Shown here: in pieces, positions 10,090 through 64,000 of the stretch | Layout of the letters: every line of letters starts with the position of its first letter | Numbering within the stretch: position 1 is the stretch's first letter | Notes under the pieces: generated by a model | Seen by the model: the letters and a program-made list of their open reading frames with translations, nothing else | Told to the model about the DNA's origin: nothing | The model's database searches: none | Made by a program: the position numbers and the translations under genes | Virus genome (UHGV): UHGV-0021337 | Source of the DNA: a virus | Direction: 5' to 3' (one strand) | DNA: 64,000 bases

Positions 10090-10602
10090 ATGTTTACTAC
10101 AACACAAAATGTTCCTGCAATATATGTAGAAAAGTCTAGAGATTTTCAACTTCTTTGTAACATTGTTGACGTTTTTGTTAATTCAGTTACAGGAAACGCT
10201 AATAAAATGCAACTACAAAATTCAGCACAATTCTGTGATGAACGTATGTTGCCATTACTTGCTACATATGTTGGATTCTTCACACAAGAATATCTACCTG
10301 CAGCTGTGCAAAGGAACATTATCTCCGTTTTTCCATTTATCATAAAGAATAAAGGAAATAAACAAAGTATAGATGTAGCTGCAAAAGCTGCTTTACGAGT
10401 TTATCCTCTTATAAATAGTATTACTACTAACATCAAGAACGACACTTACACTGTGTTCATACTCTGCAATTGTCAGAACTGGTTTGATATTGATGAACGG
10501 TATATTCGAGAAGTTATGAAATACACGTTGCCTACAGGTTATCTGCTTGCACTTATTCAAAAAGTTGGAGCGGAAGAGCGGGTACGCTACATAACATTGT
10601 AA
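10090..10602 (+). CDS. baseplate/tail fibre-associated protein (gpI-like position)
   Basis: 170 aa ORF following the J-like gene. Confidence 0.3.
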   Translation: MFTTTQNVPAIYVEKSRDFQLLCNIVDVFVNSVTGNANKMQLQNSAQFCDERMLPLLATYVGFFTQEYLPAAVQRNIISVFPFIIKNKGNKQSIDVAAKAALRVYPLINSITTNIKNDTYTVFILCNCQNWFDIDERYIREVMKYTLPTGYLLALIQKVGAEERVRYITL

Positions 10603-10632
10603 ATAAACTCAGAAACATATTGTATAACATGT

Positions 10633-11043
10633 ATGAATCTATTAGATAGCACCGTACATAATGACACTGTTGTGTGCAGGTTTATGCGAAATACGTACAA
10701 AGAGGATGAATTTTCAAGAGTTGTCAATGACCTGCTACAAGTACCAAGCTTTGTAATCAAGCTAACATCTTTTGAGATACATTTTAATTATTGTAGCAAA
10801 TATTTTGTACTACCGTTATCTTTATTTGATAAGTTTAGTTCTGTGTATGTTAGTCAAGCTTATAGCCGCGATGACATGGCAGCAAACAAGAACGATGTAG
10901 AAACACTAGTTATTGCACAAAAACATAAACCTAAATCGTTGCATCTACTAGAAAAAGTTAACAATAAATGGTGTGTACCATTACATAGTCAAATACGAAT
11001 TACAAAGTCAAAAGATATCGTATTAGATGACGGCGAATTATAA
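10633..11043 (+). CDS. hypothetical protein
   Basis: 136 aa ORF; TTGTATAACA leader motif upstream; followed by a terminator. Confidence 0.3.
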   Translation: MNLLDSTVHNDTVVCRFMRNTYKEDEFSRVVNDLLQVPSFVIKLTSFEIHFNYCSKYFVLPLSLFDKFSSVYVSQAYSRDDMAANKNDVETLVIAQKHKPKSLHLLEKVNNKWCVPLHSQIRITKSKDIVLDDGEL

Positions 11044-11070
11044 GAGCAGATTTACTGCTCTTATTTTTTT
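11042..11070 (+). terminator. rho-independent terminator closing the tail module
   Basis: AAGAGCAG-ATTTA-CTGCTCTT perfect 8-bp stem followed by ATTTTTTT. Confidence 0.55.
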
Positions 11071-11097
11071 GATTCTTTACACTTTGTATATTATAAT
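11069..11097 (+). promoter_or_regulatory. sigma-A-like promoter upstream of the methyltransferase gene
   Basis: TTGATT (-35), 17-nt spacer, TATAAT (-10) 11092-11097. Confidence 0.35.
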
Positions 11098-11103
11098 GTA
11101 AGT

Positions 11104-11847
11104 ATGAACGAAAACAACATTGAACTTTATTTAGGTAACTGGAAAGAACGATTTAAAACAATTCCCGACAAATCTATTGATTTGATTTATACCGACCCAC
11201 CGTATGATATAGGCATATTTAGACCAGGTTCAGGTGGCAGCGTTAACAACATAATGAAGTTAGATAAGACGTTGTTGCCTATAAATCAAATAACCGAAAC
11301 AAAATACAATCTAACAGAATTCTGCGACGAAGCAGTTCGAGTTATGAAAGATATCAATATTTATATATGGTGTAACAAGCCTCAGATAATTCATTACTTC
11401 AATTACTTTGTTAACGAGTTAGGATGCAAGTATGATATTCTATTCTGGAATAAAACAAATGCTCTACCGACATATTCAAATAAATACTTAACGGATTGTG
11501 AGTATCTATTAGTTTTTCGTAAAGGGAAAGCAGCGTTACATCCAGAATGTTATGAAGATGCAAAAACTGTTTTTCAAAGTCCTATAAATCGAGAAAACAA
11601 GATTTATAAACACCCTAACATAAAACCTCTTGAATTAGTTCTACGTGGTATTAAAAATTCATCAAAGGAAGGCGATATAGTTCTAGACCCATTCATGGGA
11701 AGTGGAACCACTGGCGTTGCATGTAAACAAACCGGCAGGAAATTCATTGGATGTGAGATAAATCCAGAATTCTTTGAAACAGCACAGCAACGAATACTTG
11801 GAACTGAGTATCAAGTTACGTCTACCAAAGGAGGTTTGTGGGATTGA
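11104..11847 (+). CDS. DNA methyltransferase, beta-class (N6-adenine or N4-cytosine)
   Basis: Motif IV IYTDPPYDIG precedes motif I FMGSGTTGVAC (beta order); no restriction enzyme nearby. Confidence 0.7.
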   Translation: MNENNIELYLGNWKERFKTIPDKSIDLIYTDPPYDIGIFRPGSGGSVNNIMKLDKTLLPINQITETKYNLTEFCDEAVRVMKDINIYIWCNKPQIIHYFNYFVNELGCKYDILFWNKTNALPTYSNKYLTDCEYLLVFRKGKAALHPECYEDAKTVFQSPINRENKIYKHPNIKPLELVLRGIKNSSKEGDIVLDPFMGSGTTGVACKQTGRKFIGCEINPEFFETAQQRILGTEYQVTSTKGGLWD

Positions 11848-12908
11848 AGATTGTTTTTTATAGCGATGTACATTTTAGTACTTACTCAAGTATTTTTCGC
11901 AAACGTGGAAAAACATATTCTGCAAGACTTGAGAGTTGCATAAACAGCGTCGGATGGGCAGAAGACTACGCAGAGCGGATAGGAGCCGATTTAATTGTAA
12001 TAGGTGGAGACTTTTTTGATAAAAGTGATTTAAGCGCCGAAGAATTAACTGCGTTGAAAGAGGTCTATTTCAGTCAAAAAATAAACCACACTGTACTTGT
12101 AGGAAATCATGAGATGAAAACTAGAAACAGGTCTCTTACAAGCGCACATCTATTTCAAACCCTACACGGTACGTTTGATGTTTTTGATACTCCTGTTGTC
12201 TGGAAAGGTCTTGAAATTAACAAAAATTTTAACTATGTTTTTCTACCTTATATAAATGAAGAAGAAAGGCACGCATTTGTTGAGTATCTTCCAAACAATG
12301 ATTTACCTTCAATTGTATTCAGTCACAACGACATTGCAGGAATCCAACTAGGTCAGTTTACCTCAAAAGAAGGATTTGAAATAAAAGATGTTGAACAATC
12401 TTCTGCATTATTCATAAACGGACATCTTCATAACGGAACTTTCCTAAATCAAAAGCATACTATTTGTAACGTAGGTAATCTAACAGGAAAAGATTTCGGA
12501 GAAAACGGATTTCAGTTTAAGCATCAACTTGCAGTAATTGACACTGATACAATGAGCGTTGAGTTAGTAGATAATCCTTATGCAGCATATTTCTATAAAT
12601 TTGAATTTCATAAAAGTATATCCGAAAGTGAAATACAGAATATTTGTAGTTCTCTTGCTCCTATTTCGTGTATTACATGTAAAGTAGAAATCGACGATGT
12701 ACAAGTAGTAAAATCCGCACTAGACAATTTACCTTGGGTAGTGGACTATCGCCTGATTGCGACTAAAGCACAAGGCGAGCAACCCGAAAGTGACAATGTT
12801 GTTGACACATTTGCATCAATTGACCACATAGCAGCATTCAAGACTTATATTAAGTCACAAATCGGTAACTCTGAGTTATTAGAAAAGGAGTTACAAGAAT
12901 TAGTATGA
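11838..12908 (+). CDS. sbcD: SbcD/Mre11-like nuclease
   Basis: Calcineurin-like motifs FYSDVHF, VIGGDFFD, LVGNHE; paired with the downstream SbcC homologue. Confidence 0.75.
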   Translation: MGLKIVFYSDVHFSTYSSIFRKRGKTYSARLESCINSVGWAEDYAERIGADLIVIGGDFFDKSDLSAEELTALKEVYFSQKINHTVLVGNHEMKTRNRSLTSAHLFQTLHGTFDVFDTPVVWKGLEINKNFNYVFLPYINEEERHAFVEYLPNNDLPSIVFSHNDIAGIQLGQFTSKEGFEIKDVEQSSALFINGHLHNGTFLNQKHTICNVGNLTGKDFGENGFQFKHQLAVIDTDTMSVELVDNPYAAYFYKFEFHKSISESEIQNICSSLAPISCITCKVEIDDVQVVKSALDNLPWVVDYRLIATKAQGEQPESDNVVDTFASIDHIAAFKTYIKSQIGNSELLEKELQELV

Positions 12909-14773
12909 AATTACAATTTACACGTATACAGATACACAATTTTATGTCATTTAGTGACGCCGACATTAGCTTATCCGACCGAGGCTACGTTTTAGTCCGA
13001 GGTGAAAACAATAACCCTGTAGATAATGCACAAAGCAACGGTGCAGGAAAAACAACGATATTTCACGCATTATCTTGGTGTTTAACGGGACTAACGCTTT
13101 CTGGGATTAAAAGCAATGTAGCAAACATAAAGCTCGACGATGGATGCTGGGTAAGAGTTGAATTCAGGAATGAAGGACATATATATAGTATTCTTAGGTC
13201 AAAAGATTCATCCGAGTATAAGACTGATTTGAAAATTTTTATCGATAACGAAGATAAATCAGGCAAGGGAATACGTGATTCCGAAAAACTACTTGAACAA
13301 TACTTGCCAGACTTAACTTATCAGCTTCTAGGGTCAGTCATTCTTCTTGGTCAAGGGCTACCTCAACGTTTTACAAACAACACACCTTCGGGTCGTAAGG
13401 AAGTTTTAGAGAAACTATCTAAATCTGACTTTATGATTGAAGACTTAAAGTCAAAATTAACATCACGTAAATCCACATTACAGAATGATTTACGACAAGT
13501 TGAAGATGCTATACTAACAAAAACTGCAACTATAACCACAAAAGAACAATTCAAGCAACAGTTAGAAGCTTCAAATGCTACACTTGATTCTTCCGTAATA
13601 GCGGCAGAAGTAGAAGCAGTACAAAAAAGCCAAAAAGAATTGTCTGAAAAGATTTCTTATTATGACGAACAATTTTCAGAATGTGGTGTTAAAGACCAAG
13701 AGCTGCTTAATCAAAAAGATGCTGCGTATTCTGATTACTTGTCTGAGTTGCTAGGGCTACAACATCGTTATGACCCTCAAATTGACGCTGCTCAAAAAGA
13801 ATTTCAATCCGCTCAGATTTTATACGCTACACAGAGTGCAGAGTTAACACGACTCAAATCAATAAAAGATGTTTGCCCTACTTGTGGTCAACATATACCT
13901 GGTGTTAGCCGTCCTGACACTTCCGAGCTAGAAGTTATTGTTAACAATCTGTCGCGAGAAGTTCAACAGATTTCTGACAAATTATCTACGCTAAAAGACG
14001 CTCTCAATAAAGAAAAATCAAGCATTACCTCTAGTTATGATACCAAAGCTCGTGAGTTAACTATGTTACGCTCTCAGCTCCAGTTTAAGTGCACTGACAT
14101 TAGAGGAACTCGAGAATTACTTCAATCTCAGTACTCCATTGGAGCAACACGTTTAACATCCTTGCAAGGACAACTAGCATCTTTGAACGAAACAAAGATT
14201 AAAAATGAAACAACAATACGCACTATAGCTCAAGAAATTGAAGATCTACATTCTGAAATCTTGTATAACAATACGAAAAAAGAAGAGTTAACAACACGAT
14301 TGAGTTTAGTTACAAAAATGTTAACTATTGCAACAAGAGATTTCCGAGGATTCCTACTAACTAATGTTATTGACTACATTGACTCTTGTGCAAAAAACTA
14401 TTGTCAACAGATATTTGAAACTGATAAACTTAATTTTTACCTCGATAGTAACAATTTAGACATAACGTATGACGGTAAACTATATGAAGGATTATCAACA
14501 GGTGAAAAACAAAAAGTCGACGTAATAATACAACTATCGTTGCGTGATATGCTCTGCAAGTATATGAATTTCAATTGCAACATTCTTGCTCTTGATGAGG
14601 TGTTTGATGGCCTTGATAGCGTGGGGTGCGAAAGAATTGTTAATTTAATAAACAACATAACTGACATTGAGAGCATCTTTATCATAACGCATCATTGTAA
14701 CGATATTGAGTTAAGTTATGATGATGAAATCGTTGTTGTTAAAAATAAAGATGGAATAAGTGAGATTAAATAG
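12905..14773 (+). CDS. sbcC: SbcC/Rad50-like ATPase
   Basis: Walker A NGAGKTT; CxxC zinc-hook VCPTCGQ inside a coiled coil; signature LSTGEKQKV; Walker B ILALDEVFDGLD. Confidence 0.8.
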   Translation: MKLQFTRIQIHNFMSFSDADISLSDRGYVLVRGENNNPVDNAQSNGAGKTTIFHALSWCLTGLTLSGIKSNVANIKLDDGCWVRVEFRNEGHIYSILRSKDSSEYKTDLKIFIDNEDKSGKGIRDSEKLLEQYLPDLTYQLLGSVILLGQGLPQRFTNNTPSGRKEVLEKLSKSDFMIEDLKSKLTSRKSTLQNDLRQVEDAILTKTATITTKEQFKQQLEASNATLDSSVIAAEVEAVQKSQKELSEKISYYDEQFSECGVKDQELLNQKDAAYSDYLSELLGLQHRYDPQIDAAQKEFQSAQILYATQSAELTRLKSIKDVCPTCGQHIPGVSRPDTSELEVIVNNLSREVQQISDKLSTLKDALNKEKSSITSSYDTKARELTMLRSQLQFKCTDIRGTRELLQSQYSIGATRLTSLQGQLASLNETKIKNETTIRTIAQEIEDLHSEILYNNTKKEELTTRLSLVTKMLTIATRDFRGFLLTNVIDYIDSCAKNYCQQIFETDKLNFYLDSNNLDITYDGKLYEGLSTGEKQKVDVIIQLSLRDMLCKYMNFNCNILALDEVFDGLDSVGCERIVNLINNITDIESIFIITHHCNDIELSYDDEIVVVKNKDGISEIK

Positions 14774-15624
14774 TGCAAACATTTTTTAAGCCAAAAGACA
14801 AACGTTGGGTTGACTTAGCAATTTGGTGCGACCAAAATGCTTACAAGACAGATTGTGACAATAATACTTTATATCAATATCTATATCTTTTGTTTTGGAT
14901 GTTGTCACATAAGTGGAACTACTTCCACAAAGAATCTGACTATGACGAATTTTGTCTTCTTGGTGCTCAAACAGTTTATATGCGATTGAAAAATCCTAAA
15001 CAATTTGACGGAAGTGGTAAGCTACAACCAGTTAAGTCAGTATTGAATTACATAAAGAATGTTATATACCCCATATCTGTAACATTTCAAATGCAATCCT
15101 TTGCCCAAGGATTTACAATTGAAGATGATTACAATGCGGCATTACGAGCTCAACATATGCTTAATGAAAAAGCTCGTCACTATAGCGATGACACAATGCG
15201 CATGGAATTTGAGCATTGTTTATCTTGTATAACAAATACGATAAAAACATTAGTAAAAGAACTTCCATATCGTAATGACAAACTAACAACTCACAATATT
15301 TATATAAGTTGTTTACTTACAATACTAAACTATTTGAAACTCGACAAAATTAAACTTGCCCGTCTTAATTATCGAGATAATAAAGGTATGAACAACGAAT
15401 GGGTAATAAATGAGTTGTATAGAGACACACGATATCAGAAAGCACTCTTATTCCATCTACCAGACTCTATGAGCAACTATGTGTCTGTTATTGTTAATAG
15501 AGCACTTGCTCTTATGTCAGCTGATTTGATTGGTGTTATTGGAAGTTATCAACCCTCTGATGCTATTGTAAAGGCAATCATTGCTTCTCCGTTAGAGGAT
15601 TATGTGGAGCCAAATAATGACTAA
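14773..15624 (+). CDS. hypothetical protein
   Basis: 283 aa ORF with ATGA coupling. Confidence 0.35.
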   Translation: MQTFFKPKDKRWVDLAIWCDQNAYKTDCDNNTLYQYLYLLFWMLSHKWNYFHKESDYDEFCLLGAQTVYMRLKNPKQFDGSGKLQPVKSVLNYIKNVIYPISVTFQMQSFAQGFTIEDDYNAALRAQHMLNEKARHYSDDTMRMEFEHCLSCITNTIKTLVKELPYRNDKLTTHNIYISCLLTILNYLKLDKIKLARLNYRDNKGMNNEWVINELYRDTRYQKALLFHLPDSMSNYVSVIVNRALALMSADLIGVIGSYQPSDAIVKAIIASPLEDYVEPNND

Positions 15625-16012
15625 CAACCAGATTAAAAACTTGAAAGATACCGACTGTTATAGTTTAATCTTATTTTGTTTATATAAGCTTTTAGATGTA
15701 CCAGAATATTCTTCTTTAAGCGAACTAGTATATGTTTTAGATAAACAAAATTTACTCAATTTATGTGAGTATTTTGGGGGGCAAACAATTACAATACCCA
15801 CTATTGAAGAATTAGAGACATTAACATATTCATTACTTCTTTATCAATACGTGAATGTCGAAAAGAAAGACTACACAGAAGCTCTTGAACTTATAGGACA
15901 CGAATCAAAAGATTTGCGAAGAGTAAAAAAATTCTACACAAAACTTTGCGAAGTTCTTGAAAAGTATAGTTTTCTGCCTCGAGATCCTGCACATAAATCG
16001 GTGGCTCTATGA
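15602..16012 (+). CDS. hypothetical protein (an alternative start at ATG 15617 has better RBS spacing)
   Basis: 136 aa ORF. Confidence 0.35.
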   Translation: MWSQIMTNNQIKNLKDTDCYSLILFCLYKLLDVPEYSSLSELVYVLDKQNLLNLCEYFGGQTITIPTIEELETLTYSLLLYQYVNVEKKDYTEALELIGHESKDLRRVKKFYTKLCEVLEKYSFLPRDPAHKSVAL

Positions 16013-16206
16013 CACAGGCAGGCATATACAAAATGCTCGAAGAGCTTAGCGAGCATAAGAGAGACAGACGATACTTGACTCAAATATTCATTCAAGACCG
16101 ACTTAATAAATCTATAGAAACTTACTATGACGATTTAACGCGTTCATATAATTCATTAAAACATAAAAATGAATTACACGTTTTAAGAAAATTAAACAAG
16201 GCATAA
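16009..16206 (+). CDS. hypothetical small protein
   Basis: 65 aa ORF coupled to its neighbours. Confidence 0.3.
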   Translation: MTQAGIYKMLEELSEHKRDRRYLTQIFIQDRLNKSIETYYDDLTRSYNSLKHKNELHVLRKLNKA

Positions 16207-16211
16207 ATATC

Positions 16212-16538
16212 ATGACAAATGTTGTTGAAGATTTGAATACAATTACATCGATACCTCGAGCAAATATTTCAAAACTATTTCAAAGAGTGGAGTGGCTTAT
16301 TTGCAATGCCATATATGAGGCATATATATCGGGAAATGACCTCGCGGAAATAAACTTAGGATTCGGCAAAATTTCTGTGCTGATAACAGGAAATGAGCTT
16401 AAGTATAGATTCCAGCCCTCAAGAAAAACAGAAGCTATGTTACGTGAGATATTTGAAAAGGGTTATGACCCTATCGCAGCGGAAGCAGAAAAAGCTGTCG
16501 TGGGCACAACTTTGAAAGCATATAAGGATTTATTGTGA
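16212..16538 (+). CDS. possible HU/TF1-like DNA-binding protein
   Basis: About 100 aa; AEINLGFGKISVL resembles the HU beta-arm motif (xLxGFGxF). Confidence 0.3.
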   Translation: MTNVVEDLNTITSIPRANISKLFQRVEWLICNAIYEAYISGNDLAEINLGFGKISVLITGNELKYRFQPSRKTEAMLREIFEKGYDPIAAEAEKAVVGTTLKAYKDLL

Positions 16539-28428: not shown

Positions 28429-29391
28429 ATGGGAAGAATTTCCGAAGAAGAACTCAATGCTACTTCCAGTAGCAATACTAATCAGAACGACTCTCCTTAC
28501 TATTGGTATTTTGGTCTCGCAAAAGAAGGCGATAGTGCAATAGTAAGAATAATGGACAACTCTCGAGAGGATTTAGAGCCTCTTGCTACGCACCCTGTAA
28601 AGATTAAGGGTAAGTATCGCAGAGTAAGTTGTTTACGCGACACAAAAGAACCTCTTGAATTGTGTCCACTTTGTGCGGCTGAAGCTCCAAGAGAGAAAAA
28701 AGTTTATATTCATTTAATCGAATACATAACTGCAGCTGACGGGTCTGTAATTCCTACACCAAGAGTTTGGGAAAGACCTACTGGGTATATAAACGAATTA
28801 AACGAGTATATGGCAGACTATGCTCCTTTATCTGATAATGTATTTAAGATAAAAAGAACAGGTCAAGGTGCAGGAACCAGATATGCATTGATTCCGCTCA
28901 ATCCTGCAACTGTGAATATATCTAAATATCCAAAAGACGAATCATTCTTTGCAAACTATAAAGCGCTCGGTGTGAATGTTCAAGTAAGAGATGCCGAAAA
29001 CATCATAAAGGGTATGTCAGATGGAACACTTACGTTTGAAGTGAAACAAGCGGAAGCTCAAGCTACTCCGGATGCAACAACGTTAACACCTAACGCTGTG
29101 CCTGAAGCTCCTGTCCAGCAAACTGTAGAAACTCCTGTGTCGAGTGTTGTTCCCCCCGTTATAACACCTTCAGCAACAGTAGCTACTCATAACCAAGACA
29201 ATATATCTATCGCTCCTGTAACACCTGTTGCTCCGCCTGTTGCGCCTGTTGTACCACCCGTTACGCCGGTAGCTCCTGCTACAAATAATAATCCTTGGGC
29301 GCAACCTGCTCCAAGAAGGACATATACTCCCTCTACTCCTGTAAATAATTCAGCTCCTGCATCTGGTTTTAGACCTATTCGTAATGTATAA
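28429..29391 (+). CDS. ssDNA-binding protein, T4 gp32-like, with a Pro/Val/Ala-rich C-terminal tail
   Basis: Core resembles the gp32 Zn/OB region (AIVRIMDNS..., KGKYRRVSCLRDTKEPLELCPLCAA, KKVYIHLIEY); position matches the replication module. Confidence 0.45.
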   Translation: MGRISEEELNATSSSNTNQNDSPYYWYFGLAKEGDSAIVRIMDNSREDLEPLATHPVKIKGKYRRVSCLRDTKEPLELCPLCAAEAPREKKVYIHLIEYITAADGSVIPTPRVWERPTGYINELNEYMADYAPLSDNVFKIKRTGQGAGTRYALIPLNPATVNISKYPKDESFFANYKALGVNVQVRDAENIIKGMSDGTLTFEVKQAEAQATPDATTLTPNAVPEAPVQQTVETPVSSVVPPVITPSATVATHNQDNISIAPVTPVAPPVAPVVPPVTPVAPATNNNPWAQPAPRRTYTPSTPVNNSAPASGFRPIRNV

Positions 29392-60341: not shown

Positions 60342-60410
60342 CGAGAAGCAGTGGCGTGACCTGACAGCTAAATGAGTTAATCAGTTGATAGTTCGAATCT
60401 ATCCTTCTCG
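60342..60410 (+). tRNA. tRNA-like element with aberrant D/anticodon region
   Basis: Perfect 7-bp acceptor CGAGAAG/CTTCTCG and canonical T-arm GATAG-TTCGAAT-CTATC, but no canonical D or anticodon arm and no encoded CCA. Confidence 0.25.
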
Positions 60411-60500
60411 ACAATTAAATTTATGTTCTTCATAACTGGTGCTTGCTTAGAACACAAGTTAAATGGATTACCAGCCTAGTATCTTAGACAGGAGAAAGTT

Positions 60501-60846: not shown

Positions 60847-62772
60847 ATGACTGAATTTGAAATGTGGAATGAAATAAGTAAATACTCTCAATCCTACTAT
60901 GAAGGGCATCCTGAAATCAGCGATGCTGAATTTGACAAGCTGTACGATAGTTTTAAGCAGGAGTTTCCAGATTCAAAATACTTAAAACTTCCTGCAAAAG
61001 GATTTAATCCTGCAGCGACAAATTTACAAAAATTTAAGCATAAATACAGCACTGTTGGCAGTATTGAAAAAATTCATTCTGTTGACGAGTGGGAAAAAGG
61101 TCTTTGCACAGCATATGACTTGTCTACTAAACTGGATGGAAGTTCTCTTGTTGTTTACTATAAAGATGGTATTGTTGAAAGAGCACTTTCTAGGGGTAAT
61201 GGTATTGAAGGTCTTGACATAACAAGCAAATTAAAGTATATAGCTCCGGAAGCTTATAATGGAATAAAGTACTCTAGAGAAGGTCTACCTTTTACAGGAG
61301 CGATTAGGGGCGAAGTTGTTATGTCAAATGATAATTTTGAAGAATATAAACGTACTCATCCTGAAGCACGAATGGCTCGAAACGTTTCAACAGGCATGAT
61401 GATGCGTAAAGACGCTTCTGCTGACGATCTTAAATACTGCGATTATGTAGTTTATAAAATACTGGCTGATGAGAATATACCAGACCACCACAATGTCGCG
61501 TCGGTTTCTATCGAGGATATGAGAGATACACTTTATGATTGGGGCTTTAGAGTTGTCGAGTCTGTCGAAGTTGTTGGTTCACAAATCACCGATGAATTCT
61601 TAAAAGAACTGTATGAAAACGATAAATTTAACAAATATCCGACTGACGGTATTGTTATTGAAAAATTCTTACAAACAGTTGATTATGATACAGGAATATA
61701 CCAGTTTGAAGAATTAGCATATAAATTTGCTGCAGAAACAAAAGAATGCAAAGTTATTGATGTAAAGTGGAATTTTTCGCCTAAAGGTAAACTTGTTCCT
61801 GTTATCCAAATAGAACCTACGATGATGTCAGGAGCATTAGTAAATAATGTTTCAGGATTTAACTATAAATTCATAATGGATAATAACATTGGGCCAGGAG
61901 CAGTAATAACTGTACGCAGAAGTGGTGAAGTAATACCAGATGTTCAAGAAGTGCTAGTTCCATCAACTGAAGTTAGTTCTCCTTATATATGTCCTGAATG
62001 TGGTGAACTACTTGAATTAACTAAAACAGGTGTAGACCTTATTTGTTCAAATCCTGATTGTACAGGAAGAAAGTTTTATAACAGATACACCTTTATCGAA
62101 AAGATGGCGGAAGATATAAAAGGCTTTGGAGAAGTGCTTATACAACAACTTGTTGAGGCAATGACGGAATGTTCTCCTATTCCTGAAGCTTACACAGAAG
62201 CGAGCCTGTTCTTTGATATACAACACGCAGAAGACAGTTTCTTTCATAGCGTATTTACGCCATCAAATGCAGAAAAATGTGTCAAGCTAAAACAACTATT
62301 TCAAAAACCATTAAGTAAAGAAAAATTCTTACGAGCAATGAACATTGACCTGCTGGGAGAAGTTGCTGCAAAGCAGATTTCAAGTAACACAGAGTTGTTT
62401 AACGCACTGTTCACTTGTGATAAGGCGCAACTACCCGCTCAACTTAGTGCTTTAGGTGTTGCTCCGGTGTTAGCAAATAACATAATAAAGAATATATATC
62501 GTATAAGAAAATTCAATGCTCTTAGGATTACGTGGGAAGAAAAGAACGTTAAAAATATAAGTAGATTTGTTGCTGTTACAGGAAGTTTATCAATTCCGAG
62601 AAAAGAGTTTGAAGCAAAACTTGCACAAAAGGGCTATGGAATTACAGAAAACATGAACAAAGCGGAATGCTTGATTACGAACGACCCTAATAGTGGGAGT
62701 TCTAAGAACAAGAAGGCAAAAGAACTCGGTATCCACGTAATTACTGAAAACGATTTTTGGAGTAACATATGA
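60847..62772 (+). CDS. ligA: NAD-dependent DNA ligase (LigA)
   Basis: Adenylation lysine motif KLDGSS; Cys4 zinc finger CPECG...CSNPDC; C-terminal BRCT-like region; 641 aa. Confidence 0.8.
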   Translation: MTEFEMWNEISKYSQSYYEGHPEISDAEFDKLYDSFKQEFPDSKYLKLPAKGFNPAATNLQKFKHKYSTVGSIEKIHSVDEWEKGLCTAYDLSTKLDGSSLVVYYKDGIVERALSRGNGIEGLDITSKLKYIAPEAYNGIKYSREGLPFTGAIRGEVVMSNDNFEEYKRTHPEARMARNVSTGMMMRKDASADDLKYCDYVVYKILADENIPDHHNVASVSIEDMRDTLYDWGFRVVESVEVVGSQITDEFLKELYENDKFNKYPTDGIVIEKFLQTVDYDTGIYQFEELAYKFAAETKECKVIDVKWNFSPKGKLVPVIQIEPTMMSGALVNNVSGFNYKFIMDNNIGPGAVITVRRSGEVIPDVQEVLVPSTEVSSPYICPECGELLELTKTGVDLICSNPDCTGRKFYNRYTFIEKMAEDIKGFGEVLIQQLVEAMTECSPIPEAYTEASLFFDIQHAEDSFFHSVFTPSNAEKCVKLKQLFQKPLSKEKFLRAMNIDLLGEVAAKQISSNTELFNALFTCDKAQLPAQLSALGVAPVLANNIIKNIYRIRKFNALRITWEEKNVKNISRFVAVTGSLSIPRKEFEAKLAQKGYGITENMNKAECLITNDPNSGSSKNKKAKELGIHVITENDFWSNI

Positions 62773-63153: not shown

Positions 63154-63420
63154 ATGGAACGTAGAGACTATGAACTTAGCACAGATATAGCAAATTTTGC
63201 TAGTGCAACATATGTGACAACTAAAGATATCAATATAGCAGTTGAAAAAGCTGCTACGAAGTTTCATATAACAAATGAGCAAGTTATAAAGGTCCTTCCT
63301 TTAGAGTTGTATATTAAGGTTCTTATAGTTAATAAAGCGATTCCTGATATCGAAAACTATAAAGTCCTTCGCGATATCTTTAGCGATGAATGGTTGGACG
63401 CAGTTGGAAATATCGATTAA
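63154..63420 (+). CDS. hypothetical protein
   Basis: 88 aa ORF with RBS AAGAGGGT. Confidence 0.3.
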   Translation: MERRDYELSTDIANFASATYVTTKDINIAVEKAATKFHITNEQVIKVLPLELYIKVLIVNKAIPDIENYKVLRDIFSDEWLDAVGNID

Positions 63421-63479
63421 ACGCTTGATTCTTATACAAAAATATAATATAATAATTGTATAATAAATATAAAGGTGAT

Positions 63480-64000
63480 ACGAAGCCAGATACAGCAGCG
63501 TTTTGTTAGAGCGTGTGGCTGGTCAGGGATAAGCGACGTACACGTGGAAGTCCTTAGAAGCAGTATTAGTGGAAAGAATTAAACAGCCTTTAACATCGAG
63601 AATGTGGTGTAGTAGGAACACGCCTGCTTTGGGAGCAGGAGTCGCAGTGCAAATCTGACATTTTCGACCAACATGGGGATAAGAAAGGTTTCGATTGCAG
63701 TTAAATCCAAAGTGAACCTGCAAGACTCGAGTTCAATTCTCAATATCTTCTCCAAACCAGCTCTTTTGCTGGAACATCTGTACAGAGGTAAGCAGTAACA
63801 CGTCCTAAATTACTGCACTCCAAATTGCTGAGAGTATAAAACAAGGCAAGCGTTGGCAGGCTACGCTACTTGCCCAAAGCCGCTGCTAATTGACGGCACG
63901 GAGAGGTGATTATGCTAGTCCTCTCAAAATGATTGAATAGCTCAATTTGGTAGAGCTTAAAGACTTAGGAAAGAAACTTCTTGATATCCGAAGCCTCAGG
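63480..64000 (+). ncRNA. GC-enriched, ORF-free structured RNA region (tRNA-like pieces within a larger ornate structure); runs off the window edge
   Basis: No ORF over 30 codons; GC content jumps relative to flanks; many perfect hairpins (GCAGTAA/TTACTGC, GGCAAG/CTTGCC, GAGAGG/CCTCTC, TTGCAG/CTGCAA); tRNA-like acceptor/T-arm/CCA segments. Confidence 0.3.
63597..63670 (+). tRNA. tRNA-Pro(UGG)-like gene with a degenerate T-arm (possible non-canonical or pseudo-tRNA)
   Basis: Acceptor CGAGAAT/ATTTTCG (one G-U), discriminator A, encoded CCA; D-arm GTGT-AGTAGGA-ACAC; anticodon arm CCTGC-TTTGGGA-GCAGG (U33, G37); the T-stem has only 3 bp and the loop reads TGCAAAT. Confidence 0.35.

What the first reader, a model, noticed from the sequence alone, without database searches (positions are those of the whole stretch)
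63480..64000. Large GC-enriched, ORF-free, highly structured RNA candidate at the window edge (ornate ncRNA, tRNA array or tmRNA-like)
Over the last 520 nt the composition shifts sharply toward G+C, and there is no ORF longer than about 30 codons. The sequence is packed with perfect hairpins. It contains a nearly complete tRNA-Pro-like gene (63597-63670: acceptor, D and anticodon arms and CCA are fine, but the T-arm is degenerate). It also contains an 80-nt segment with a tRNA-like acceptor/T-arm/CCA but no anticodon arm (63675-63754), and a canonical D-arm motif TAGCTCAATTTGGTAGAGC at 63937. Large structured RNAs such as GOLLD and ROOL are known to sit beside tRNA genes in Firmicutes phages and prophages. 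That class or a tmRNA-like RNA are possibilities I cannot resolve by eye.
Basis: seen in the sequence. Interest (0 to 1): 0.6.

Follow-up and report, generated by a model that had tools for sequence, protein, structure and literature searches.

The report
Phage tRNA operon with headless tmRNA
The G+C-rich, gene-free stretch at the window edge is not one large ornate RNA but the start of a phage tRNA operon, and one of its units is a rare 80-nt "tmRNA without its message", a kind of RNA reported to block the bacterial ribosome-rescue system.

Summary
The single-large-RNA reading is wrong.

Window 63480-64000 is the promoter-proximal part of a polycistronic tRNA operon of a new ~165-kb low-GC phage. 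The full contig was recovered as L001. A sigma-70-like promoter (63425-63453) is followed by:
- a non-conserved leader;
- an atypical tRNA-Pro(UGG) (63597-63670) with an 8-bp acceptor stem, a shortened T stem and an encoded CCA;
- an 80-nt tRNA-like-domain-only (TLD-only) tmRNA relative (63675-63754);
- hairpin spacers;
- the first 70 nt of a 130-nt tRNA-like gene (63931-64060).

No GOLLD, ROOL, RNase P or group I match exists. The region as a whole folds no better than shuffled sequence.

The TLD-only unit scores 57 bits against a covariance model built from 76 unrelated viral sequences; real tRNAs score 25 bits or less. Mycobacteriophage DS6A, the one published phage case and reported to inhibit E. 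coli tmRNA, scores 60 bits.

The family turns out to be common in viral contigs (at least 120, capped scan) and rare in bacterial genomes (about 17).

The window copy is divergent: U73 and G2:U71 replace the near-invariant A73 and G2:C71. Its most likely role is as an SmpB decoy or modulator of trans-translation. That role is inferred, not shown.

The parts
63425..63453 (+). Sigma-70-like promoter of the tRNA operon (TTGATT, 17-nt spacer, TATAAT)
   Evidence: Matches 10 of 12 consensus positions (L001 10272-10300 = window 63425-63453). The promoter block is almost identical in the related phage L122. It is a consensus match only; no transcription data exist.
63454..63596 (+). 5' leader of the operon, probably discarded during processing
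   Evidence: Fold z = -0.5. Only its first ~16 nt and last ~15 nt are shared with L122; the middle differs in sequence and length. No Rfam or R1 match.
63597..63670 (+). Atypical tRNA-Pro(UGG): 8-bp acceptor stem (C1:G72, discriminator A, CCA encoded), T stem reduced to 3-4 pairs, T loop UGCAAAU
   Evidence: Rfam tRNA 47.5 bits. The ortholog L122 12520-12593 is called tRNA-Pro(UGG) by ARAGORN. It carries two compensatory changes (acceptor A:U to U:A, T stem A:U to C:G) and the same T loop. Alignment with four canonical phage tRNA-Pro genes shows one extra acceptor nucleotide and two fewer before the T stem.
63675..63754 (+). TLD-only (CDS-less) tmRNA relative. It has a 7-bp acceptor stem with G3:U70, the D-loop analogue GGUUUCGA, a 6-bp P2 hairpin capped by 17 nt, a T arm, and a UCCA 3' end. 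It has no mRNA-like domain and no pseudoknots.
   Evidence: Rfam tmRNA model matched end to end, with 308 model positions replaced by 13 nt: 29.1 bits, below the gathering score of 47. Model R1, built without this sequence, gives 57.2 bits and E = 5e-12, against 25 bits or less for true tRNAs. DS6A scores 60.3 bits. It starts 4 nt after tRNA-Pro, as TLD units do in other phage arrays.
63755..63930 (+). Inter-unit spacer with four short hairpins (63757-63774, 63792-63816, 63845-63874, 63901-63925)
   Evidence: Hairpins listed. Fold z = -1.9 and -0.5 for the two halves. The whole cassette 63671-64060 is absent from L122. No Rfam match.
63931..64000 (+). First 70 nt of a 130-nt tRNA-like gene (63931-64060). 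Acceptor stem, D arm, T arm and ACCA are canonical. The anticodon arm is replaced by about 69 nt that fold into two hairpin domains.
   Evidence: Rfam tRNA 42.3 bits, with a 69-nt insertion in place of the 17 anticodon-arm positions. The minimum-energy fold keeps the acceptor, D and T arms; z = -2.0. ARAGORN in intron mode proposes tRNA-Leu(CAG) with a 32-nt insert at position 32/33, but the anticodon stem has only 3 Watson-Crick pairs of 5. No homologue was found in IMG/VR.

Best explanation
The region is the promoter-proximal part of a phage tRNA operon. One transcript starts at the promoter at 63425-63453. It is cut into separate small RNAs by the host tRNA-processing enzymes, with RNase P at the 5' ends; the CCA ends are already encoded.

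The units are:
1. A working but architecturally unusual tRNA-Pro(UGG).
2. An 80-nt RNA that is the tRNA-like domain of tmRNA with the message part deleted.
3. A 130-nt tRNA-like RNA with an expanded anticodon region.

The TLD-only RNA most likely binds host SmpB. It may also be charged weakly, or not at all, with alanine through its G3:U70 pair. Either way it would compete with host tmRNA, so that trans-translation and the proteolysis tagging of unfinished proteins are damped or redirected during infection.

Shown here: the identity and boundaries of the units, family membership, covariation, and embedding in tRNA arrays.
Inferred: transcription, processing, SmpB binding, charging, and the effect on trans-translation.
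For: Operon:
- The promoter is conserved in the relative.
- No terminator-like site occurs before the next promoter at L001 11452.
- tRNA-Gly and tRNA-Leu follow in the same orientation.

TLD-only unit:
- End-to-end match to the Rfam tmRNA model with the mRNA-like domain deleted.
- 57.2 bits against an independent model of 76 viral TLD-only sequences. True tRNAs score 25 bits or less; DS6A scores 60.3.
- The family structure is supported by covariation: 96.2% of cells paired against 49-56% in slid controls, and 450 double-change cells against 54-72. G3:U70 is present in 81 of 81 sequences.
- Canonical members pass the Rfam tmRNA gathering score (72.2 and 69.4 bits).
- Units sit 2-5 nt after a tRNA gene inside arrays. 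Here the gap is 4 nt.
- The family is enriched in viruses: at least 120 IMG/VR contigs in a capped scan, against 53 pattern hits and about 17 true members in 185,579 species genomes.
- No SmpB gene was found in the window, L001, L122 or 1.1 Mb of flanks, so a host SmpB partner is implied.

Function:
[quoted passage not shown] This is stated in PMC4131195 and PMC11915505, citing Mao et al. 2009.
Against: - No expression or processing data exist.
- The window copy is the lowest-scoring full member.
- It is the only one of 81 with discriminator U instead of A, and the only one with G2:U71. It also has a C-A mismatch in the T stem. It could therefore be decaying.
- The closest related phage (L122) lacks the whole cassette, so the unit is dispensable in that lineage. 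No ortholog could be found to test purifying selection on this copy.
- The primary paper on DS6A inhibition (Mao 2009) could not be read here.
- Why a phage would gain from blocking ribosome rescue has not been established.
Confidence: 0.6

Rival explanations
1. Tag-less ribosome rescue. The TLD-only RNA is alanylated and delivered with SmpB and EF-Tu to stalled ribosomes, where it accepts the nascent chain. Because it has no message, the ribosome is then released by another factor. Phage proteins from broken mRNAs would escape the degradation tag. This is the role proposed for the message-less mitochondrial tmRNAs of jakobids.
For: - G3:U70, the acceptor stem, the T arm and the encoded CCA are all kept, which a pure protein decoy would not obviously need.
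- A73, G1:C72 and G2:C71 are near-invariant across the family, suggesting that charging matters for the family as a whole.
- CDS-less tmRNAs that co-occur with SmpB are thought to help with incomplete mRNAs in mitochondria (PMC11915505).
Against: - This particular copy has U73 and G2:U71. From general knowledge of AlaRS identity elements, these should lower charging.
- No release factor or ArfB-like partner was looked for or found.
- The only experimental report on a phage form describes inhibition, not rescue (PMC4131195, PMC11915505).
Confidence: 0.2
2. Decaying remnant. The unit was once a functional TLD-only gene, acquired as a cassette together with the spacer and the 130-nt tRNA-like gene. 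It is now drifting and does nothing.
For: - It is the lowest-scoring family member.
- It alone departs at two positions that are otherwise near-invariant, and it has a T-stem mismatch.
- The cassette is absent from the nearest relative.
Against: - All 7 acceptor pairs and all 6 P2 pairs are intact.
- The D-loop analogue, the T loop, the subclass loop motif (UAAAUCCAAAGUGAA) and the CCA are kept.
- Its score equals that of DS6A, the form reported to be active.
- It keeps tRNA-like spacing in the operon.
Confidence: 0.12
3. One large structured non-coding RNA spans the region (GOLLD/ROOL-like, or a full tmRNA).
For: The G+C rise and the absence of called genes. Large RNAs are known to sit beside tRNA genes in phages (general knowledge).
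Against: - No Rfam match other than tRNA and tmRNA models, at gathering and at E up to 10.
- Whole-region fold z = +0.12.
- The region resolves into separate units, each with its own acceptor stem and CCA.
- The leader and spacers are not conserved in L122.
- ARAGORN finds no tmRNA.
Confidence: 0.03
4. The tRNA-like RNAs without a normal anticodon arm are decoys or sponges for host tRNA-targeting defences or tRNA-processing enzymes. Candidates are the TLD-only unit, the 130-nt unit and several minihelices elsewhere in the array. Targets could be anticodon nucleases or the CCA-adding and repair enzymes, rather than ribosome rescue.
For: - The same phage carries several acceptor/T-arm minihelices that lack anticodon arms.
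- It also carries an RNA-repair gene set next to the array: Rnl1-type ligase, a second RNA ligase, and a kinase.
Against: - The TLD unit carries tmRNA-specific signatures: GGUUUCGA, P2 with GAC junctions, and G3:U70. A generic decoy would not need these.
- There is no evidence that the minihelices are expressed or conserved.
Confidence: 0.05

Closest known systems
TLD-only ('CDS-less') tmRNA of mycobacteriophage DS6A (tmRNA Website; Hudson, Lau & Williams 2014, PMC4131195; PMC11915505)
   Same: Both are phage-encoded. Both have the 5' and 3' halves of the tmRNA tRNA-like domain joined by a short P2 hairpin, with no tag reading frame and no pseudoknots. Length is ~80 nt in both, and both keep G3:U70. 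Scores against model R1 are nearly the same: 57.2 here and 60.3 for DS6A at NC_023744 28478-28560. Both fall below the Rfam tmRNA gathering score (29.1 and 43.2).
   Different: DS6A is a 60-kb GC-rich temperate mycobacteriophage, and its unit stands alone between protein genes. Here the unit is part of a tRNA operon in a ~165-kb AT-rich phage. DS6A keeps G2:C71 and discriminator A but ends in CUA rather than CCA. The window copy has G2:U71 and discriminator U and ends in CCA.
Bacterial tmRNA (Rfam RF00023)
   Same: The acceptor stem with G3:U70, the D-loop analogue GGNUUCGA, helix P2 flanked by GAC, and the T arm all align end to end to the model.
   Different: The mRNA-like domain, the resume codon, the tag ORF and all pseudoknots are missing: 308 model positions are replaced by 13 nt. 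The score is below the gathering threshold. It cannot act as a template.
Message-less mitochondrial tmRNA of jakobids and ~65-nt plastid forms (Rfam RF02544; Jacob et al. 2004; PMC11915505)
   Same: These are also natural tmRNA derivatives reduced to the tRNA-like domain, presumed to work with SmpB.
   Different: They are organellar, not viral, and are thought to help rescue rather than inhibit it. In clan competition the Rfam tmRNA model, not the mt-tmRNA model, was the best match for the phage forms.
tRNAs with 8/4 or 9/3 acceptor/T-stem architecture and 8-bp-acceptor tRNAs (tRNA-Sec, tRNA-His). Recalled from the literature, not tested.
   Same: The tRNA-Pro at 63597-63670 has 8 (or 9) acceptor pairs and 4 (or 3) T-stem pairs. 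This keeps a roughly 12-pair coaxial stack.
   Different: It has a short variable loop, a Pro anticodon and the bacterial tRNA-Pro acceptor signature C1:G72/A73. It is not a Ser/Sec-type tRNA.
GOLLD / ROOL large phage-associated RNAs
   Same: Only the context: next to tRNA genes in a phage.
   Different: No match in any Rfam search. The region is a string of small units, not one fold.

Membership tests
Phage TLD-only (CDS-less) tmRNA, DS6A type | 5' and 3' halves of the tmRNA tRNA-like domain are contiguous, joined by a short P2 hairpin, and score well against a family covariance model | tested here: met
   R1, built from 76 IMG/VR sequences with the window excluded, gives 57.2 bits and E = 5e-12. 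tRNAs score 25 bits or less and DS6A 60.3.
Phage TLD-only (CDS-less) tmRNA, DS6A type | G3:U70 wobble pair in a fully paired 7-bp acceptor stem | tested here: met
   GGGGAUA pairs with UAUCUUC, 7 of 7 positions, with G3:U70. G3:U70 occurs in 81 of 81 family rows.
Phage TLD-only (CDS-less) tmRNA, DS6A type | Near-invariant G2:C71 and discriminator A73 followed by CCA | tested here: not met
   The window has G2:U71 and UCCA. The family has G2:C71 in 80 of 81 rows and ACCA in 79 of 81. CCA itself is present.
Phage TLD-only (CDS-less) tmRNA, DS6A type | Binds SmpB and inhibits trans-translation | not testable with these tools
   Known only from the literature on DS6A or a similar molecule (PMC4131195, PMC11915505). 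The primary paper is not held.
tmRNA (RF00023) | Reaches the Rfam gathering score | tested here: not met
   29.1 bits against 47. The hit was not reproduced in two other calls with different search spans.
tmRNA (RF00023) | mRNA-like domain with resume codon, tag ORF and stop, plus pseudoknots | tested here: not met
   Only 17 nt lie between the P2 strands. ARAGORN finds no tmRNA.
tRNA (RF00005), unit 63597-63670 | Cloverleaf above the gathering score, with an anticodon arm | tested here: met
   47.5 bits against 29, anticodon UGG. The ortholog carries compensatory changes.
tRNA (RF00005), unit 63597-63670 | Canonical 7-bp acceptor stem, 5-bp T stem and T loop UUCRANY | tested here: not met
   8-bp acceptor stem, 3-4-bp T stem and T loop UGCAAAU, in both phages. 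ARAGORN misses the window copy.
tRNA (RF00005), unit 63931-64060 | Standard anticodon arm (17 nt) | tested here: not met
   Replaced by about 69 nt. The intron-mode model has a weak anticodon stem.
GOLLD / ROOL / RNase P RNA / group I intron | Match to the Rfam covariance model | tested here: not met
   No match, at gathering or at E up to 10, in the window or in L001.
YrlA (Y RNA-like, RF02553) | Ro-binding stem plus tRNA-like module above the gathering score | tested here: not met
   Only the 19-nt D arm matches: 15.3 bits against 69. The ends of the RNA form an acceptor stem with ACCA, not a Ro-binding helix.

The most novel reading that the evidence does not exclude
TLD-only tmRNA genes may be a widespread weapon of phages against, or a hijack of, bacterial ribosome rescue, rather than a one-off oddity of phage DS6A. 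They would be delivered as ordinary-looking units of tRNA arrays. The weapon is largely unrecognised: ARAGORN misses most copies, and the literature searched names a single phage case. The window copy, with U73 and G2:U71, would then be a variant tuned to be a non-chargeable pure SmpB sponge. It sits in a phage that also carries other anticodon-less tRNA mimics.
Probability: 0.3. Interest if true: 0.7.

Novelty: new member of a known kind. Interest (0 to 1): 0.5.

Why it matters
Trans-translation is the main ribosome-rescue pathway of bacteria and is an antibiotic target. A natural 80-nt RNA that blocks or diverts it, carried by many phages, would have three consequences:
- It would be a new layer of phage-host conflict over the translation machinery.
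- It would be a ready-made minimal inhibitor scaffold.
- It would be a caution for annotation. These genes look like degenerate tRNAs: ARAGORN called 4 of 102, and divergent copies fall below the Rfam tmRNA threshold.

For this window itself the practical message is more modest. The G+C-rich gene desert is a tRNA operon, and two of its three units in the window are non-standard.

Tried and rejected
- **GOLLD, ROOL, RNase P, group I intron, full tmRNA:** no Rfam hit in the window or in the downstream contig. No ARAGORN tmRNA.
- **One large fold:** rejected, whole-region z = +0.12.
- **Close relatives by DNA or protein:**
  - BLAST of 63400-64000 against 50,697 phage records found nothing.
  - The 88-aa upstream protein and an exact 22-mer of the TLD unit found nothing in IMG/VR.
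  - Patterns from tRNA-Pro and from the conserved downstream block found only the single relative contig, in IMG/VR and in JGI metagenomes. Covariation on this exact copy could therefore not be tested.
- **Cultured-phage examples by BLAST with a family member:** the hits in S-SSM7, SM1, Yeezy and S-CRM01 are 3'-end fragments or tRNAs, scoring 21-32 bits with R1. They are not TLD-only genes.
- **attP remnant of integration into host ssrA:** rejected. The unit carries the 5' half as well, sits inside a tRNA operon of a large phage, and no integrase is nearby.
- **Two-piece (permuted) tmRNA:** rejected. The halves are in standard order and are joined by P2.
- **Phage-encoded SmpB:** none by tblastn in the window, L001 or L122, or in 1.1 Mb of flanks of 120 viral loci.
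- **YrlA reading of the 130-nt unit:** rejected, D-arm match only.
- **Homologues of the 130-nt unit:** the nine IMG/VR pattern hits are unrelated tRNAs or tRNA pairs.
- **Reproducibility of the Rfam tmRNA match:** it appeared but not. That is why an independent model was built.

Full report
**1. Where the window comes from**

All long ORFs of the window are on the + strand and G+C is about 35%. Its NAD-dependent DNA ligase (60847-62772) is under 30% identical to that of any of 50,697 deposited phages.

An exact-protein look-up of the 88-aa ORF at 63154-63420 recovered the source contig, ENA ERZ27287185 k141_1109836, of 164,672 bp. It was fetched as locus L001, with window coordinate = L001 coordinate + 53153. 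This gives about 9.4 kb beyond the window edge.

One related phage was found through the ligase (74% amino-acid identity): IMG/VR 3300045988_170194, 128,912 bp, locus L122.

**2. Check of the observation**

- G+C rises to 0.44-0.46 over 63500-64000, against 0.29-0.36 just upstream.
- No gene is called between L001 10268 and 11543. Mechanical ORFs of up to 66 aa do overlap the region, so the claim of no ORF above 30 codons is not literally true.
- The region as one unit is not unusually stable: -140.5 kcal/mol against -141.3 +/- 6.4 for shuffles, z = +0.12.
- It contains five or six perfect 6-7-bp hairpins.

**3. What the region is**

On L001, ARAGORN finds 14 tRNA genes. Rfam finds 15 tRNA-model matches, in two gene-free blocks, 10268-11543 and 12460-16506. 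The finding is therefore the first 520 nt of a large phage tRNA array.

A sigma-70-like promoter (TTGATT, 17 nt, TATAAT; 10 of 12 matches) lies at window 63425-63453. It is nearly identical in L122. No terminator-like site occurs before the next promoter at L001 11452.

No GOLLD, ROOL, RNase P RNA, group I intron or any other non-tRNA family is detected. This holds at gathering scores and at E up to 10, in the window and in the downstream contig.

**4. Unit 1: tRNA-Pro(UGG), 63597-63670**

Rfam scores it 47.5 bits against a gathering score of 29, with two non-standard T-stem positions. ARAGORN misses it.

The ortholog in L122 (12520-12593) is called tRNA-Pro(UGG) by ARAGORN. It differs by two compensatory pairs: acceptor A:U becomes U:A, and T-stem A:U becomes C:G. 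It keeps the odd T loop UGCAAAU.

Read from C63597, the acceptor stem has 8 pairs, or 9 in the minimum-energy fold of the L122 copy. It is followed by discriminator A and an encoded CCA. The T stem has only 3-4 pairs.

Aligned with four canonical phage tRNA-Pro genes, the odd pair has one extra nucleotide in the acceptor 5' strand and two fewer before the T stem. It keeps the C1:G72/A73 acceptor end of the canonical genes.

From general knowledge, C1:G72 and A73 are bacterial ProRS determinants, and an 8+4 stack keeps the 12-pair length of the acceptor/T helix. I therefore read this as a functional tRNA-Pro with an 8/4 (or 9/3) architecture. This part is inference from two sequences.

**5. Unit 2: TLD-only tmRNA relative, 63675-63754**

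*Match to tmRNA.* Rfam's tmRNA model matches it from model position 1 to 374, with 308 internal positions (the message and the pseudoknots) replaced by 13 nt. The score is 29.1 bits, below the gathering score of 47. The match was not reproduced in two other calls with different spans, so I tested the unit independently.

- Of 142 regex matches, 102 have 7 of 7 acceptor pairs. These give 76 unique sequences of 64-90 nt.
- A covariance model (R1) built from these 76, with the window excluded, scores the window unit at 57.2 bits, E = 5e-12. Every true tRNA in the window, L001 and L122 scores 25 bits or less.

*Covariation.* On the model-based alignment of 81 sequences:
- 96.2% of cells pair, against 49-56% when partners are slid.
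- There are 450 double-change cells, against 54-72 in the slid controls.
- G1:C72 and G3:U70 are invariant, and G2:C71 holds in 80 of 81 rows.
- The D-loop analogue and the T loop were imposed by the search pattern, so they are not independent evidence. The acceptor 3' strand and the discriminator were not imposed.

*Link to the literature.* The tmRNA database papers name one phage 'TLD only' tmRNA, in mycobacteriophage DS6A. They state that it, or a similar molecule, strongly inhibits endogenous tmRNA in E. coli whether or not it is chargeable, perhaps by titrating SmpB (PMC4131195, PMC11915505, citing Mao et al. 2009, which is not held).
- R1 finds exactly one hit in DS6A, at 28478-28560, an unannotated intergenic spot, scoring 60.3 bits.
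- Rfam's tmRNA model scores canonical members above its threshold (L110 72.2, L024 69.4), DS6A at 43.2, and the window copy at 29.1.
- The window unit is therefore a divergent member of the DS6A-type class.

*Searches of the held literature* found no description of a widespread phage family. The terms used were tmRNA with phage and tRNA-like domain, DS6A, tmRNA-like, huge phages, and phage-encoded. Subscription journals are largely outside that library.

**6. Properties of the family that bear on function**

- ARAGORN calls only 4 of 102 copies.
- 28 of 102 loci have a tRNA gene within 300 nt on the same strand.
- In L024, L173, L180 and L165 the unit sits 2-5 nt after a tRNA gene inside an array. 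Here the gap is 4 nt after tRNA-Pro. This spacing and the encoded CCA suggest co-transcription and tRNA-type processing.
- The same pattern found only 53 stretches in one genome each of 185,579 bacterial and archaeal species. About 17 of them score above 50 bits, and most are on MAG contigs. The family is thus strongly virus-enriched.
- No SmpB homologue was found in the window, L001 or L122, or in 1.1 Mb flanking 120 viral copies.
- The most similar copies (about 75% identity) include L024. L024 and a Christensenella MAG contig (L180) share two proteins at about 40% identity with the window phage. This is a faint hint of a gut Clostridia host.

**7. How the window copy differs**

It is the lowest-scoring full member. 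It is the only one with discriminator U (UCCA, against ACCA in 79 of 81) and the only one with G2:U71. Its T stem has a C-A mismatch.

From general knowledge, A73 and G2:C71 are secondary AlaRS determinants, so charging may be weak.

Everything else is intact: 7 of 7 acceptor pairs, 6 of 6 P2 pairs, GGUUUCGA, the T loop UUCAAUU, and the subclass loop motif UAAAUCCAAAGUGAA.

L122 lacks the whole cassette from L001 10518 to 10907: the TLD unit, the spacer and unit 3. The cassette is therefore an insertion or a loss, and is not essential in that lineage.

**8. Unit 3 and the non-unit sequence**

*Unit 3.* L001 10778-10907 (window 63931-64060) has a canonical acceptor stem, D arm, T arm and ACCA, with about 69 nt in place of the anticodon arm. 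Rfam tRNA gives 42.3 bits and the fold has z = -2.0.
- ARAGORN in intron mode proposes tRNA-Leu(CAG) with a 32-nt insert at position 32/33 and a long variable arm. However, the anticodon stem has only 3 Watson-Crick pairs of 5, and the D arm is of the class I type. I leave it as a tRNA-like RNA of unresolved nature.
- No homologue was found.

*Leader and spacer.* The leader (63454-63596) and the spacer (63755-63930) are not conserved and have no family match.

**9. Mechanism and verdict**

The best-supported account has three parts:
- The region is a promoter-proximal tRNA operon whose transcript is cut into small RNAs.
- One product is a working but unusual tRNA-Pro.
- Another is a TLD-only tmRNA relative that engages host SmpB and competes with tmRNA.

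Identity and anatomy are shown here. Expression, SmpB binding, charging and the effect on trans-translation are inferred from the family and from the DS6A report.

The rivals are tag-less rescue, a decaying remnant, a generic tRNA decoy, and the large-RNA reading. They are weighed in the structured fields.

The finding as framed, an ornate large RNA, is not supported. What is there is a new and divergent member of a known but barely described kind. As a by-product, that kind is shown to be common in viral metagenomes.

Noticed in passing
L001 11186-11365 (would be window 64339-64518, just past the edge); L122 12786-12965: A ~180-nt non-coding block directly after tRNA-Leu(UAG) is about 95% identical between the two phages, including a 76-nt perfect run. 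That is far more conserved than the neighbouring tRNAs or the ligase (74% aa). The fold of 11186-11420 has z = -3.2, with 0 of 200 shuffles as stable. There is no Rfam match. It is a candidate new structured RNA in the tRNA operon.
   Followed up: partly
window 60342-60414 (+): An unannotated tRNA-like unit lies upstream of tRNA-Ser. It has acceptor CGAGAAG/CTTCTCG and T arm GATAG-TTCGAAT-CTATC, but no normal anticodon arm and no CCA (ACAA). It scores 22 bits with R1. ARAGORN and Rfam do not call it.
   Followed up: partly
L001 12745-12794, 13179-13232, 14838-14893, 15029-15111: Four more acceptor/T-arm minihelices of 50-83 nt, with a small hairpin in place of the D and anticodon arms, lie in the tRNA-free gaps of the array. 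One has the same odd T loop UGCAAAU as the tRNA-Pro, and one has z = -2.9. The gaps L001 12460-13408 and 13734-15186 hold no called gene and no known RNA family.
   Followed up: partly
L001 10908-11029 and L122 12594-12711: The spacer after the cassette is conserved between the two phages. It contains a hairpin with compensatory changes (ACTCATTGTGCACAATGAGT against AATTCTTGTGCACAAGAATT).
   Followed up: no
L001 15841-15931 and 15934-16024: The array encodes a long-variable-arm tRNA with anticodon CUA, an amber suppressor that ARAGORN labels 'Pyl'. It also encodes a tRNA with anticodon ACU. This hints at stop-codon reassignment or suppression late in infection.
   Followed up: no
L001 1104-1403, 17315-17539, 2551-3768, 18854-19987, 20021-20267: The phage carries two ribosomal protein S21 genes. 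Flanking the tRNA array are an RNA-ligase (PF09414) gene, a T4 Rnl1-type ligase gene and a kinase-family gene, that is, a tRNA-repair-like set.
   Followed up: no
IMG/VR loci L081, L089, L102, L106, L114, L005, L030, L066, L075: A second class of ~72-74-nt tRNA-like RNAs. They start GGGG, then have a GGATTCGAAATCC hairpin, a second hairpin and a T arm, and end in CTCTCC-GCCA. They have no anticodon arm. They score about 40 bits with R1, so they are distinct from the TLD-only family.
   Followed up: no
IMG/VR loci L133/L134/L136 and L138: These are tRNA genes with canonical acceptor, D and T arms but ~50-nt insertions in the anticodon region. In L138 a clear anticodon stem (UCAUU/AAUGA) encloses the insert. 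Expanded tRNA-like genes thus recur in viral contigs.
   Followed up: no
window 63840-63893 (+): A short frame inside the spacer reads NKASVGRLRYLPKAAAN-stop. The alanine-rich end recalls tmRNA tags. However, it lies after the CCA end of the TLD unit and partly inside a hairpin, so it is most likely chance (read).
   Followed up: no
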